NCBI RefSeq assembly: GCF_009914755.1
Contig: NC_060947.1
DNA length: 64,000 nucleotides
Direction: 5' to 3' (one strand)
Source of the DNA: the human T2T-CHM13v2.0 reference genome, Homo sapiens
Shown: in pieces, positions 14,519 to 45,917 of the stretch
Position numbering within the stretch: position 1 is the first letter of the stretch
Layout: each line of letters begins with the position of its first letter
Position numbers and translations under genes: made by a program
Notes under the pieces: model-generated
The model's database searches: none
Seen by the model: only the letters and a program-made list of their open reading frames with translations
Told to the model about the DNA's origin: nothing

Positions 14519-17500
14519 ATATATATATATATACTTTAAGTTCTGGGACACATGTGCAGAACGTGCAGGTTTGTTACATAGGTATACACCTGCCATGGTG
14601 GTTTGCTGCACCCATCAACCTGTCATCTACATTAGGTATTTCTCCTAATGCTATCCCTCCTCTAGCCCCTCACACCCCGACAGGCCCCGGTGTGCGATGC
14701 TCCCCTCCCTGTGTCCATGTTTTCTCACTGTTCAGCTCCCACTTATGAGTGAGAACATGCGGTGTTTGGTTTTCTGTTCCTGTGTTAGTTTGCTGAGAAT
14801 GATGGTTTCCAGTGTCATCCATGTCCCTGCAAAGGACATGAACTCATCCTTTTCTGTGGCTACATAGTATTCCATGGTGTATATGTGCCACATTTTCTTT
14901 ATCCAGTCTATCATTGATGGGCATTTGGATTGTTTCCAAGTCTTTGCTATTGTGAATAGCACTGCAATAAACATATGTGTGTATATGTCTTTATAGTAGA
15001 ATGATTTATAATCCTTTGGGTATATACCCAGTAATGGGATGGCTGGGTCAAATGGTATTTCAGGTTCTAGATCCTTGAGGAATTGCCACGCTGTCTTCCT
15101 CAATGGTTGAACTAATTTACACTCCCACCAACAGTGTAAAAGCTTTCCTATTTCTCCACATCCTCTCCAGCATCTGTTGTTTCCTGATTTTTTAATGATC
15201 ACCATTCTAACTGGTGTGAAATGGTATCTCATTGTGGTTTTGATTTGCATTTCTCTAATGACCAGTGATGATGAGCTTTCTATGTTTCTTGGCCACATAA
15301 ATGTCTTCTTTTGAGAAGTCTCTGTTCATATCCTTCACTCACTTTTTGATGGCGTTGTTTGTTTTTTTCTTGTAAATTTCTTTAAGTTCCTTGTAGATTC
15401 TGGAAAATAGCCCTTTGTCAGATGGACAGATTGCAAAAATTTTCTCCCATTCTGTAGGTTGCCTGTTCACTCTGATGGTAGTTTCTTTTGTTGTGCAGAA
15501 GCTCTTTAGTTTAATTAGATCATTTGTCAATTTTGGCTTCTGTTGCCATTGCTTTTGGTGTTTTAGTCATGAAGTCTTTGCCCGTGCCTGTGGCCTGAAT
15601 GGTATTGCCTAGGTTTTCTTCTAGGATTTTTGTGGTTTTAGGTCTTACAGTTAAGTCTTTAATCCATCCTGAGTTCATTTTTGTATAAGTTGTAGGGAAG
15701 GGGTCCAGTTTCAGTTTTCTGCATATGGCTAGCCAGTTTTCCCAACACCATTTATTATATACAGAATCCTTTCCCCATTGCTTGTTTTTGTCAGGTTTGT
15801 CAAAGATCAGATGGTTGTAGATGTGTGGCATTATTTCTGAGGCCTCTGTTCTGTTCCATTGGTCTTTATATCTGTTTTGGTACCAGTACCATACTGTTTT
15901 GGTTACTGTAGCCTTGTAATATAGTTTGAAGTCAGTTAGCGTGATGCCTCCAGCTTTGTTCTTTTTGCTTAGGATTGACTTGGCTATATGGTATGTATTT
16001 TTGGTTCTATATGAAATTTAAAGTAGTTTTTTTTTCTAATTCTGAGAAGAAAGTCAATGGTAGCTTGATGGGTATGCATTGAATCCATAAATTACTTTGG
16101 GAAATACGGCCATTTTCAGGATATTGTTTTTTCCTATCCATGAGCATGGAATGTTCTTCCATTTGTTTGTGTCCTCTCTTATTTCCTTGCGCAGTGGTTT
16201 GTAGTTCTCCTTAAAGAGGTCCTTCACATCCCTTGTAAGTTGTATTCCCAGGTATTTTATTCTCTTTGTAGCAATTGTGAATGGGAGTTCACTCATGATT
16301 TGGCTCTCTGTTTGTCCATTATTGGTGTATAGGAATGCTTGTGATTTTTGCACATTGATTTTGTATCCTGAGACTTTGCTGAAGTTGCTTATCAGTTTAA
16401 GGAGATTGTGGGCTGAGATGATGCGGTCTTCTAAATATACAATCATGTCATCTGCAAACAGAGACAATTTGACTTCCTCTTTTCCTATTTGGATACCTTC
16501 TATTTCTTTCTCTTGCCTGATTGCCCTGGCCAGAACTTCCAATACTGTGTTGAATAGGAGTGGAGCGAGAGGGCATCCTTGTCTTGTGCCAGTTTTCAAA
16601 GGGAGTGCTTCCAGCTTTTGCCCATTCAGTATGATATTGGCTGTGGGTTTGTCATAAATAGCTCTTATTATTTTGAGATATGTTCCATCAATACCTAGTT
16701 TATTGAGAGTTTTTAGTATGAAAGGGTGTTGAATTTTATTGAAGGCCTTTTCTGCATCTATTGAGATAATCATGTGGTTTTTGTCATTGGTTCTGTTTAT
16801 GTGATAGATTATGTTTATTGATTTGCATATGTTGAACCAGCCTTGCAGCCCAGAGATAAAGCCGACTTGATTGTGGTGGATAAGCTTTTTGATGTGCTGC
16901 TGGATTTGGTTTGCCAATATTTTATTAAGGATTTTCTCATTGATGTTCATCAGGGATATTGGCCTGAAATTTTCTTTCTTCATTGTGCCTCTGCCAGGTT
17001 TTGATATCAGGATGATGCTGGCCTCATAAAATGAGTTAGGAAGAAGTTCCTCTTTTTTTATTGCTTAGAATAGTTTCAGAAGGAATGGTACCAGCTCCTC
17101 TTTGTACCTCTGGTAGAATTCAGCTGTGAATACGTCTGGTCCTGTGCTTGTTTTGGTTGGTAGGCTATTAATTACTGCCTCCATTTCAGAACTTGTTATT
17201 GATCTATTCAGGGATTTGACTTTTTCCTGATTTAGTCTTGGGAGGGTGTATGTGTCCAGGAATTTATCCATTTCTTGTAGATTTTCTAGTTTATTTGAGT
17301 AGAGGTGATTTTAGTATTCTCTGATAATAGTTTGTATTTCTGTGGGATCAGTGGTAATAACCCCTTTATCATTTTGTATTGTGTCTATTTGATTCTTCTC
17401 TCTTTTCTCCTTTATTAGTCTGGCTAGTGGTCTATCTATTTTGTTAATGTTTTCAAAAAACCAGCTCCTGGATTCACTGATTTTTTGAAGGGTTTTTCAT

Positions 17501-20500
17501 GCCTCTATCTTCTTTAGTTCTGCTCTGATTTTAGTTATTTCTTGTCTTCTGCTAGCTTTTGAATGTTTGCTCTCGCTTCTCTAGTTCTTTTTATTGTGAT
17601 GTTAGGGGGTCGATTTTAGATCTGTCCCTGCTTTCTTTTGTGGGCATTTAGTGCTATAACTTTCCCTCTAAACACTGCGTTTGCTGTGTCCCAGAGATTC
17701 TGGTATGTTGTGTCTTTGTTCTCATTGGTTTCAAATAACTTATTTATTTCTGCCTTAATTTTGTTATTTATCCAGTAGTCATTCAGGAGCAGGTTGTTCA
17801 GTTTCCATGTAGTTGTGCAGTTTTGAGTGAGTTTTTAATCCTGAATTTTAATATGATTGCACTGTGGTCTGATAGACTGTTATGGTTTCCATTGTTTTGC
17901 ATTTGCTGAGGAGTGTTTTACTTCCAATTATGTGGTCAATTTTAGAATAACTGTGATGTGGTGCTGAGAAGAATGTATATTCTGTTATTTGAGGTGGAGA
18001 GTTCTGTAGATGTCTATTAGTTGTGCTTGGTCCAGAGCTGAGTTCAAGTCCTGAATATCCTTGTTAATTTTCTGTCTCATTGATCTGTCTAATATTGACA
18101 GTGGGGTGTTAAAATCTCCCACTATTATTGTGTGGGAGTCTAAGTCTCCTTCTAGGTCTCTAAGAACTTGCTTTATGAATCTAGGTGCTCCTGTATTGGG
18201 TGCACATATATTTAGGATAATTAGCTCTTCTTGTTACATTGATCCCTTTACCATTATATAGTACCCCTCTTTGTCTTTTTTTAATCTTTGTTGGCTTAAA
18301 ATCTGTTTTATCACAGACTAGGATTGCAACCCCTGCTGGGTTTTTTTTCTTTTTTTTTTTTCTTTTTTTTTTAGATGGCGTTTTGCTCTTGTTGCCCAGG
18401 CTAGAGTGCAGTGGCATGATCTTGGCTCACCACAACCCCCACCTCCCAGGAGCAAGCAATTCTCCTGCCTCAGCCTCCCGAGTAGCTGGGATTACAGGCA
18501 TGTGCCACCACGCCTTGCTAATTTTGTATTTTTAGTGGAGATGTGGTTTCTCCATGTTGGTCAGGCTAGTCTTGAACTCCCGACCTCAGGTGATCCCGCT
18601 GCCTCAGCCTCCCAAAGTACTGGGATTACAGGTGTGAGCCACCTCGCCTGACCAACACCTGTTTTTTTTTTTTTTTGCTTTCCATTTGCTTGGTAAATAT
18701 TCCTCCATCCCTTCATTTTGAGCCTATGTGTGTCTTTGTACATGAGATGCATCTCCTGAATACAGCACACTGATGGGTCTTGACTCTTTATCCAATTTGC
18801 CAGTCTGTGTCTTTTAATTGGGGCATTTAGCCCATTTACATTTAAGGTGAATACTGTTATGTGTGAATTTGATCCTGTCATTATGATGCTTGCTGGTTAT
18901 TTTGCCCATTAGTTGATGCAGTTTCTTCATAGTGTCGACGGTCTTTACAATTTGGTACGTTTTGCAGTGGCTGGTACCGGTTTTTCCTTTTGATATTTAG
19001 TTCTTCCTTCAGGAGCTCTTGTAAGGCAGGCCTGGTGGTGACAAAATGTCTCTCAGCTTTGTTTTTCTGTAAAGGATTTTATTTCTCCTTCGCTTATGAA
19101 GCTTAGTTTGGCTGGATATGAAATTCTGGGTTGAAAATTCCTTTTTTAAGAATGTTGAATATTGGCCTCTCTTCTGGCTTGTAGGGTTTCTGCGGAGAGA
19201 TCTGCTGTTAGTCTGATGAGCTTCCCTTTGTGGGTAACCCGACCTTTTTCTTTGGCTGCCTTTGACATTTTTTCCTTCATTTCAACCTTGGTGAATCTGA
19301 TGATTATGTGTCTTGGGGTTGCTCTTCTCGAGGAGTATCTTTGTGGTATTCTCTGTATTTCCTGAATTTCAATGTTGGCCCGTCTTGCTAGGTTGGGGAA
19401 GTTCTCCTGGATAATATCCTGAAGAGTGTTTTCCAACTTGGTTCCATTCTCCCCATCACTTCCAGATACACCAATGAAACATAGGTTTGGTCTTTTCACA
19501 TAGTCCCATATTTCTTGGAGGCTTTATTTGTTCCTTTCATTCTTTTTTCTCTAATCTTGTCTTCACGTTTTATTTCATTAAGTTGATCTTCAATATCTGA
19601 TATCCTTTCTTCCACTTGATCAATTCGGCTATTAATATTTGTGTATGCTTCACAAAGTTCTCGTGCTGTGTTTCTCAGCTCCATCAGATCATTTATGTTC
19701 TTCTCTAAACTGGTTATTCTAGTTAGCAATTCCTCTAACCTTTTTTCAAGGTTCTTAGCTTCCTTGCATTGAGTTAGAACATGCTCCTTTAGCTCTGAGG
19801 AGTTTGTTATTACCCACCTTTTGAAGCCTACTTCTGTCAATTGGTCAAACTCATTCTCCATTCAGTTTTGTTTCCTTGCTGGCGAGAAGTTGTGATCCTT
19901 TGGAGGAGAAGAGGCATTCTGGTTTTTGGAATTTTCAGCCTTTTTGCACTGGTTTTTCCTCATCTTTGTGGATTTATCTACCTTTGGTCTTTGATGTTGG
20001 TGACCTGCAGATGGGGTTTTTGTGTGGGCATCCTTTTTGTTGATGTTGATGTTATTGCTTTCTGTTTGTTAATTTTTCTTCTAACAGTCAGGCCTCTCTG
20101 CTTCAGGTCTGCTGGAGTTTGCCGAAGGTCCACTCCAGACCCTGTTTGCCTGGGTATCCCCAGCGAAGGCTGTAAAATAGCAAAGATTACTGCCTGTTCC
20201 TGCCTCTGGAAGCTTCATCCCAGAGGGGCACTCACTGGATGCCAGCTGGAGCTCTCCTGTATGAGATGTCTGTCAACCCCTGCTGAGAGGTGTCTCCTAG
20301 TCAGGAGGCACGAGGGTCAGGGACCCACTTGAGTTGGCAGTCTGTCCCTTAGCAGAGCTCGAGCACTGTGCTGGGAGATCCACTGCTCTCTTCAGAGCTG
20401 GCAGGCAGGAACATTAAAATATGCTGAAGCTGTGCCCACAGCCGCCCCTTCCCCCAGGTGCTCTGTCCCAGGGAGATAGGAGTTTTATCTATAAGTCCCT

Positions 20501-45700: not shown

Positions 45701-45917
45701 CCCTGACCCCTTGTGCTTCCCAGGTGAGGCAATGCCTCGCCCTGCTTTGGCTCATGCTCGGTGTGCTGCACCCACTGTCCTGCGCCCACTGTCTGACAAG
45801 CCCCAGTGAGATGAACCCAGTACCTCAGTTGGAAATGCAGAAATCACCCATCTTCTGCATTGCTCACGCTGGGAGCTGTAGACTGGAGCTGTTCCTATTC
45901 AGCCATCTTGGAACCAC
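39785..45917 (-). mobile_element. Full-length L1 #3 (L1PA4/5-like), ORF1 and ORF2 frameshifted
   Basis: 5' end ggtggttccaagatggc; ORF1 pieces at 44147-44992; ORF2 pieces including the 491-aa frame at 42339-43814; young-type 3' UTR. Confidence 0.95.

What the first reader, a model, noticed from the sequence alone, without database searches (positions are those of the whole stretch)
14519..45917. Patchwork of shared non-consensus mutations among three co-oriented L1s suggests ectopic gene conversion
Seen: L1 #1 and #2 share the same TGG>TGA stop in KKWAKD (15339-15341 and 31118-31120; #3 keeps TGG). They also share [12 protein letters not shown] (versus LWKTVWR), KSLNRSIT...STGPDVF (17128-17220 and 32884-32980; versus ESLNRPIT...SPGPDGF) and tctgagaagaaag. 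L1 #2 and #3 share [16 protein letters not shown] and APNTGAHRF (versus QIY...IKK and APRF). Their 3' UTRs point to different subfamilies (PA7-, PA8- and PA4/5-like), and each sits in its own TSD-bounded insertion. Inference: a shared inactivating codon in independent insertions of different age is best explained by later intrachromosomal gene conversion. The same 6-kb direct repeats could also drive NAHR deletions or duplications upstream of TLR7. Consensus residues are from recall.
Basis: partly seen in the sequence, partly recalled or inferred. Interest (0 to 1): 0.72.

Follow-up and report, generated by a model that had tools for sequence, protein, structure and literature searches.

The report
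Neighbouring L1 elements swapped short tracts
Three old, dead L1 jumping-gene copies upstream of TLR7 share clusters of mutations found together almost nowhere else in the human genome, most likely because short stretches were copied between neighbours after they inserted; this is a known kind of DNA exchange with no sign of function here.

Summary
Three full-length minus-strand L1s of three age groups lie between PRPS2 and TLR7. Over kilobases they are no more alike (89-91%) than unlinked copies. In the 3' 1.1 kb, #1 and #2 share 7 rare variants within 450 bp; 535 unlinked pairs reach at most 5. #2 switches to #3's haplotype at about 31119-31219. Genome-wide, the #2/#3 triple variant occurs in 2 places, both here. 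The #1/#2 double at 17132/17145 occurs in 2 of 860 copies, both here. A common sub-lineage is therefore excluded for these sites. The stop codon alone is weak evidence: 306 of 9235 copies carry it. #1/#3 shows nothing, and #3 has no clean TSD. The NAHR idea is unsupported: identity is below the roughly 96% threshold in print. Conversion between neighbouring repeats is established for Alu and reported for L1, so this is a well-resolved new instance of a known process.

The parts
14519..21308 (-). Full-length L1 #1 (middle age group; 'PA7-like' is a recalled label), interrupted by an Alu
   Evidence: group-A state at 8 of 8 A/B diagnostic columns and 4.8% from the group-A majority
14506..14518 (.). 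TSD of #1, left copy (right copy 21309-21321)
18340..18668 (-). Alu inserted in ORF2 of #1
30276..36695 (-). Full-length L1 #2 (oldest group; 'PA8-like' is recalled), involved in both exchanges
   Evidence: group-B state at 5 of 8 diagnostic columns, non-B at 30730 and 31190
30262..30275 (.). TSD of #2, left copy (right copy 36696-36709)
39784..45919 (-). Full-length L1 #3 (youngest group; 'PA4/5-like' is recalled); no clean TSD
   Evidence: young state at 38 of 41 diagnostic columns; 2.2% from the group-C majority
14986..15114 (-). Conversion tract 1 in #1: 128 bp with 1 mismatch to #2; shared rare bases 15041, 15090, 15100
30762..30889 (-). Conversion tract 1 in #2 (shared bases 30816, 30865, 30875)
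15339..15341 (-). TGA stop in ORF2 of #1, one of 7 rare variants shared with #2 in 15041-15491
31118..31120 (-). Same TGA stop in #2
31119..31219 (-). Tract 2 in #2 carrying #3's haplotype: rare shared bases 31125, 31155, 31159; young-type bases 31163, 31204; loss of the B state at 31190
40608..40708 (-). Matching segment of #3, likely donor of tract 2
15428..15583 (-). 156 bp with 2 mismatches to #2 (from 31207), containing shared rare base 15491/31270; possible further tract
17132..17202 (-). Candidate tract 3 in #1 (shared bases 17132, 17145, 17202)
32888..32958 (-). Candidate tract 3 in #2
15997..16045 (-). Two further rare bases shared by #1 and #2 (31779, 31824); not counted genome-wide
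33938..33938 (-). Single rare base shared by #2 and #3 (43450; the APNTGAHRF site); one site only, inconclusive

Best explanation
Three separately inserted, dead L1 copies carry short shared haplotypes that were likely copied between neighbours by non-allelic gene conversion after insertion. The middle copy (#2) likely exchanged several tracts of about 70-160 bp with #1, 15.8 kb away, and likely received an 80-100 bp tract from the younger #3, 9.5 kb away. The inferred mechanism is non-crossover repair of a break or nick in one L1 using the nearby co-oriented, roughly 90% identical copy as template. This moves neutral mutations, probably including the stop codon, and leaves flanks and TSDs intact. 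Shown: the shared variants, their excess over unlinked pairs, their genome-wide rarity and the subfamily switch in #2. Inferred: the repair pathway, the number of events, the direction for #1/#2 and the timing.
For: #1/#2 share 7 rare non-CpG variants in 1033 columns, all within 450 bp. The 535 unlinked pairs reach at most 5, and the 190 subfamily-matched pairs average 0.84 with a maximum of 3 (Poisson P 2.8e-5). Across ORF2, #1 shares 14 rare variants with #2, against 0-10 for 16 unlinked #1-like copies. #2/#3 share 3 rare variants within 35 bp; 0 of 60 matched pairs and 1 of 535 pairs in all do so within 60 columns. The same tract holds young-type diagnostic bases. Mixture LOD scan: #2 from #3 scores 22.3-23.7, reached by 0 of 986 null pairs; #1 from #2 scores 15.8-17.2 against a matched maximum of 14.0-14.9 in 190 pairs, and 6.6-7.5 for the best unlinked donor to #1. 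Genome-wide exact counts: the #2/#3 triple occurs 2 times, both here; the 17132+17145 double in 2 of 860, both here; 15100+stop in 3 of 16, and the third copy shares none of the five other #1/#2 variants. Flanks are not homologous and the TSDs differ, so this is not a tandem duplication. #3 is the best non-self hit for #2's 30900-31400 among 40 scored of 8303 candidates.
Against: Kilobase-scale identity of neighbours is no higher than to unlinked copies. Near-perfect runs are only borderline: 128 bp with 1 mismatch is reached by 2 of 105 unlinked pairs, and #2/#3 runs are unremarkable. The stop occurs in 3.3% of copies, and #1 and #2 differ at 6 of 58 columns around it, so it could be a coincidence. 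In ORF2 beyond 15700 the #1/#2 excess is not significant (7 hits, P 0.11). The genome-wide patterns were chosen after seeing the sharing, so they exclude a lineage but not chance. The #1-from-#2 LOD was reached by 4-7 of all 986 null pairs, and at one setting an unlinked young donor scored 22.0 against 22.3 for #3. Panels are small: 6 young copies picked by likeness to #2's tract, and 11 #2-like copies covering only the 3' 1.1 kb. No ape orthologues were available.
Confidence: 0.85

Rival explanations
1. Chance homoplasy: independent recurrent mutations at mutable sites in two old copies, noticed because they are neighbours.
For: The stop recurs in 306 of 9235 copies. Unlinked pairs share on average 0.4-1 rare variants per 1.1 kb, and 16 of 535 have two or more within 60 columns. 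Over the 3' UTR and ORF2 one unlinked pair (L012/L023) came close to #1/#2, 10 versus 11. Isolated shared sites such as 33938, 17951 and 18263 fit this.
Against: Seven variants in 450 bp, and a triple plus a subfamily switch, were not matched by the null pairs. Several shared changes are transversions seen in 0 or 1 of 100 listed copies.
Confidence: 0.08
2. Shared descent from a minor L1 sub-lineage or a chimeric source element that already carried the variants.
For: Sub-lineage structure exists: some unlinked pairs share 7-10 rare variants over 3.6-3.9 kb, and L036 mixes A and B states. No #2-like panel covers the 5' two thirds.
Against: The joint haplotypes occur only here or at chance level genome-wide. 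The three elements belong to different groups. A stop in ORF2 would not be expected in an autonomous source element (established L1 biology, recalled).
Confidence: 0.03
3. The tracts came from a distant L1 copy or from L1 cDNA rather than from the neighbour.
For: Unlinked young copies also score well as donors for #2, up to 22.0. An unlinked copy (L028) carries a young-type patch of unknown source. cDNA-mediated conversion is reviewed for yeast elements in PMC6598467.
Against: The private variants match only the neighbour in the whole genome. cDNA from active elements would carry subfamily bases, not a neighbour's private mutations.
Confidence: 0.04

Closest known systems
Non-allelic gene conversion between neighbouring Alu elements (Aleshin and Zhi 2010, seen only as cited in passages of PMC8230782, and PMC6598467)
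   Same: Same signature: non-diagnostic mutations shared by nearby copies and mosaic subfamily diagnostics, with young-to-old transfer the commoner direction in PMC8230782.
   Different: Here the elements are 6-kb L1s of three age groups at about 90% identity, and the #1/#2 distance (15.8 kb) exceeds the roughly 10 kb range cited for Alu.
Local conversion between L1PA3 copies, and conversion beside an L1PA7-flanked inversion (bioRxiv 10.1101/175943, passages)
   Same: Intrachromosomal conversion between nearby human L1 copies.
   Different: Those were read-versus-reference differences in one cell line; these are older tracts in the reference, inferred from shared variants across subfamilies.
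LTR-LTR conversion on the human Y chromosome (Trombetta 2016, as reviewed in PMC6598467)
   Same: Clusters of derived alleles traced to a donor copy on a sex chromosome.
   Different: LTR elements and population polymorphism; no population data were used here.
LINE-LINE NAHR (Startek 2015, PMC4344489, passages)
   Same: Directly oriented L1 pairs longer than 4 kb.
   Different: Enrichment at CNV breakpoints needed about 96% identity or more; these pairs are 89-91% identical and no crossover product is seen.

Membership tests
Non-allelic gene conversion between repeats | Paralogues are independent insertions, not a duplication | tested here: met
   Different TSDs for #1 and #2, no flank homology, three subfamily groups; #3 lacks a clean TSD
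Non-allelic gene conversion between repeats | Clustered shared derived variants in excess of unlinked pairs | tested here: met
   7 versus at most 5 in 535 pairs; a triple in 35 bp versus 1 of 535; LOD scan
Non-allelic gene conversion between repeats | Shared variants are not inherited from a source lineage | tested here: met
   Genome-wide counts of 2, 2 of 860 and 3 of 16; only these sites were counted
Non-allelic gene conversion between repeats | Local switch of subfamily-diagnostic bases | tested here: met
   #2 has young bases at 31163 and 31204 and loses the B state at 31190, with old states at 31065 and 31257
Non-allelic gene conversion between repeats | Tract identity significantly above background | tested here: inconclusive
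   128 bp with 1 mismatch matched by 2 of 105 null pairs, 156 bp with 2 mismatches by 1 of 105; #2/#3 runs are not unusual
Non-allelic gene conversion between repeats | Non-reciprocal transfer shown by an unconverted orthologue or allele | not testable with these tools
   No primate genomes or population haplotypes are held
LINE-LINE NAHR substrate | Direct orientation and more than 4 kb of homology | tested here: met
LINE-LINE NAHR substrate | Identity of about 96% or more | tested here: not met
   8.9-10% divergence in ORF2; threshold from PMC4344489
LINE-LINE NAHR substrate | Deletion or duplication with breakpoints in the pair | not testable with these tools
   No structural-variant sets are held; a literature search on TLR7/PRPS2 (listing only) showed no title on this
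L1PA7 / L1PA8 / L1PA4-5 subfamilies | Match to Dfam or Repbase consensus | not testable with these tools
   No repeat library is held; labels are recalled. Group divergences of 5.7%, 6.8% and 3.7% fit the age order

The most novel reading that the evidence does not exclude
The 3' end of ORF2 in L1 #2 (30760-31360) is a recurrent conversion hotspot that exchanged DNA with both neighbours long after they had diverged to about 90%. Such short-tract exchange between old full-length L1s over 10-16 kb is routine, leaving many copies as mosaics that bias subfamily calls and age estimates; 2 of 30 unlinked panel copies also show subfamily-switch patches in 1.1 kb.
Probability: 0.3. Interest if true: 0.55.

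Novelty: new member of a known kind. Interest (0 to 1): 0.36.

Why it matters
It is a clean case of short-tract conversion between L1 copies of different ages at only about 90% identity and up to 16 kb apart, with a likely donor and recipient identifiable from one genome. It suggests a simple genome-wide test (rare variants shared by neighbouring versus unlinked L1s) of the kind done for Alu. I found no such test for L1 in the ten searches made; the library lacks most subscription journals, and older L1 conversion papers that I recall could not be opened. It also warns that shared disabling mutations are not proof of common descent. No effect on TLR7 or PRPS2 is indicated: the elements are intergenic and dead, with longest stop-free stretches in the ORF2 region of 336, 275 and 496 aa.

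Tried and rejected
The three-way sliding window without an outgroup (441, 329 and 282 sites for the three pairings) mostly reflects ordinary phylogeny. The longest-run statistic was borderline only. The first LOD scan had a positive drift from a coding error and was discarded; the corrected version is. A PDB search for an ORF2 outgroup failed because the chosen frame held stops and was not repeated. The third copy with 15100+stop (L045) shares no other variant and was rejected as a relative. The inverted 3' L1 fragment at 50834-51241 shares only two isolated rare bases with the trio, so no tract was called. #1/#3 exchange was rejected. Tandem duplication was rejected. Full-length panels for #2 and #3 could not be obtained, so the 5' two thirds were tested only against #1-like copies. 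Rows left out: 5 of the 16 #2-like stretches in the 3' test (L030 and L031 had no useful match; L029, L040 and L043 fell elsewhere in ORF2); L011 in the 3' test; pairs with under 600 comparable columns; and all B-by-B pairs (too few other copies). Three papers looked up by recalled id were not held.
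Full report
Anatomy. Self-comparison of the window shows three long co-oriented repeats on the minus strand: L1 #1 at 14519-21308 with an Alu at 18340-18668, #2 at 30276-36695 and #3 at about 39784-45919. 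#1 and #2 have exact TSDs of 13 and 14 bp. For #3 the best candidate is 12 bp with 2 mismatches and displaced, so no TSD is called. The flanks share only other repeats, so the three are not a tandem duplication.

Reference panels. I searched the window's own genome with the 5' end of each element. I obtained 20 stretches holding #1-like copies (group A), 16 short stretches of #2-like copies of which 11 cover the 3' 1.1 kb (group B), and 6 younger 3' copies (group C, picked by likeness to #2's 30900-31400). Leave-one-out divergence from the group majority is 5.7% (A), 6.8% (B) and 3.7% (C). #1 has the A state at 8 of 8 A/B diagnostic columns and #2 the B state at 5 of 8; #3 has the C state at 38 of 41 C-diagnostic columns. 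So the three are of different age groups. The names PA7, PA8 and PA4/5 are recalled and were not tested. Per kilobase the neighbours are no more alike than unlinked copies, which excludes long or wholesale homogenisation.

The stop codon. An exact genome-wide count gives 306 copies with the stop among 9235 that match the same anchors, 3.3%. By itself it is therefore weak evidence. Combined with the rare transversion at 15100, 3 of 16 copies carry the stop: the two neighbours and one copy at chrX 45.5 Mb. About 0.46 were expected by chance among the 14 others, and that copy shares none of the five other #1/#2 variants.

#1 and #2. In the 3' 1.1 kb they share 7 non-CpG variants that are rare in both of their groups (15041, 15090, 15100, 15288, 15339, 15380, 15491). 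Among 535 unlinked pairs the maximum is 5, and among 190 A-by-B pairs the mean is 0.84 and the maximum 3. Three of the seven lie in a 128-bp stretch with one mismatch (14986-15114), against 8.9% background divergence. A second stretch of 156 bp with 2 mismatches starts at 15428. Such run lengths alone are borderline (2 and 1 of 105 null pairs). Across ORF2 #1 shares 14 rare variants with #2, against 0-10 for 16 unlinked A copies. Beyond 15700 the excess is not significant (7 hits, P 0.11), nor is it in ORF1 and the 5' UTR (6 hits, P 0.12). The double transversion at 17132/17145 occurs in 2 of 860 copies genome-wide, the two neighbours. Direction is uncertain; #2 lacks the B state at 30730 just outside the first tract, which hints that #2 was the recipient.

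#2 and #3. Between about 31119 and 31219, #2 carries #3's haplotype: rare shared bases at 31125, 31155 and 31159, young-type bases at 31163 and 31204, and loss of the B state at 31190, with old states on both sides at 31065 and 31257. The triple occurs twice in the genome, in these two elements. A mixture LOD scan gives 22.3-23.7, reached by 0 of 986 null pairs; the matched B-from-C maximum is 11.4-12.5. Unlinked young copies score up to 22.0 at one setting and 16.5 at the other, so the identification of #3 as partner rests on the private variants. Base 15380/31159/40648 is shared by all three elements. It may reflect relay through #2, two-way exchange or chance, and cannot be resolved here. 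The APNTGAHRF base is rare (0 of the first 100 listed of 6432 matches; 0 of 17 panel copies) but is a single site. #1 and #3 show no excess.

Mechanism. Shown: shared rare haplotypes in short blocks, in excess of unlinked pairs, absent elsewhere in the genome, with intact TSDs for #1 and #2. Inferred: non-crossover homologous repair in the germline using the nearby co-oriented copy as template, in several separate events. Tract divergences of 0.8% (CI 0-4.3), 1.3% and 2.5% (CI 0.3-8.6) against 8.9% suggest the events came well after insertion, but the tract limits were chosen for low divergence, so these values are biased low. The genome-wide patterns were chosen after the fact: they exclude a shared source lineage for those sites, while the case against chance rests on the null pairs.

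NAHR. Startek 2015 (PMC4344489, passages) found LINE pairs enriched at CNV breakpoints only at about 96% identity or more, though the authors note that short high-identity sub-fragments may act. These pairs are 89-91% identical. By the hub's annotation, a deletion between them would spare the PRPS2 and TLR7 exons and could remove the enhancer at 25477-25796. Nothing here shows such an event.

Comparison with print. Conversion among neighbouring Alus within about 10 kb, mosaic subfamily diagnostics and young-to-old transfer are described in PMC8230782 (passages) and PMC6598467 (parts 1-2 of 4 of the text). Local conversion between L1PA3 copies is reported in bioRxiv 10.1101/175943 (passages). 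bioRxiv 10.1101/594200 does not use the term (term search), and PMC13192797 mentions it once in passing. None of the ten search listings showed a title on this locus or a genome-wide L1 neighbour test. The library lacks most subscription journals and no supplements were read, so absence from print is not established.

Verdict. A real feature: short-tract ectopic gene conversion among neighbouring dead L1s (confidence 0.85), a new instance of a known process, with no sign of function. Interest 0.36.

Noticed in passing
window 38826-39135: A little-diverged Alu with a long clean poly(A) and a TSD of about 17 bp lies between L1 #2 and #3; it looks like AluYa5 (label recalled), so it may be human-specific or polymorphic.
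   Followed up: no
window 38020-38110: A very short, 5'-truncated L1 3' end (about 90 bp, minus strand) behind a (TA)n run.
   Followed up: no
window 50834-51241: An inverted L1 3' fragment in TLR7 intron 2; it shares only two isolated rare bases with the trio.
   Followed up: partly
L028 (G000:C6:56400400-56408000), at columns matching window 31052-31065: An unlinked #1-like copy carries three adjacent young-type diagnostic bases and scores LOD 18-20 with young donors: probably another conversion tract.
   Followed up: partly
L036 (G000:C15:68849220-68850420): A #2-like copy has three consecutive A-group states in its 3' UTR: a conversion patch or an intermediate lineage.
   Followed up: partly
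L040 (G000:C23:54592810-54594010) and L043 (G000:C4:105692500-105693700): Downstream of old-type 5' UTRs the ORF2 sequence is 94% identical to the young #3: nested young insertions or old/young chimeras.
   Followed up: no
window 39784-45919: L1 #3 lacks a clean TSD although it is the youngest of the three; target-site deletion or later rearrangement is possible.
   Followed up: partly
window 58696-58859 and 59698-59867: A direct repeat of about 170 bp at 85% identity, 1 kb apart, inside TLR7 intron 2.
   Followed up: no
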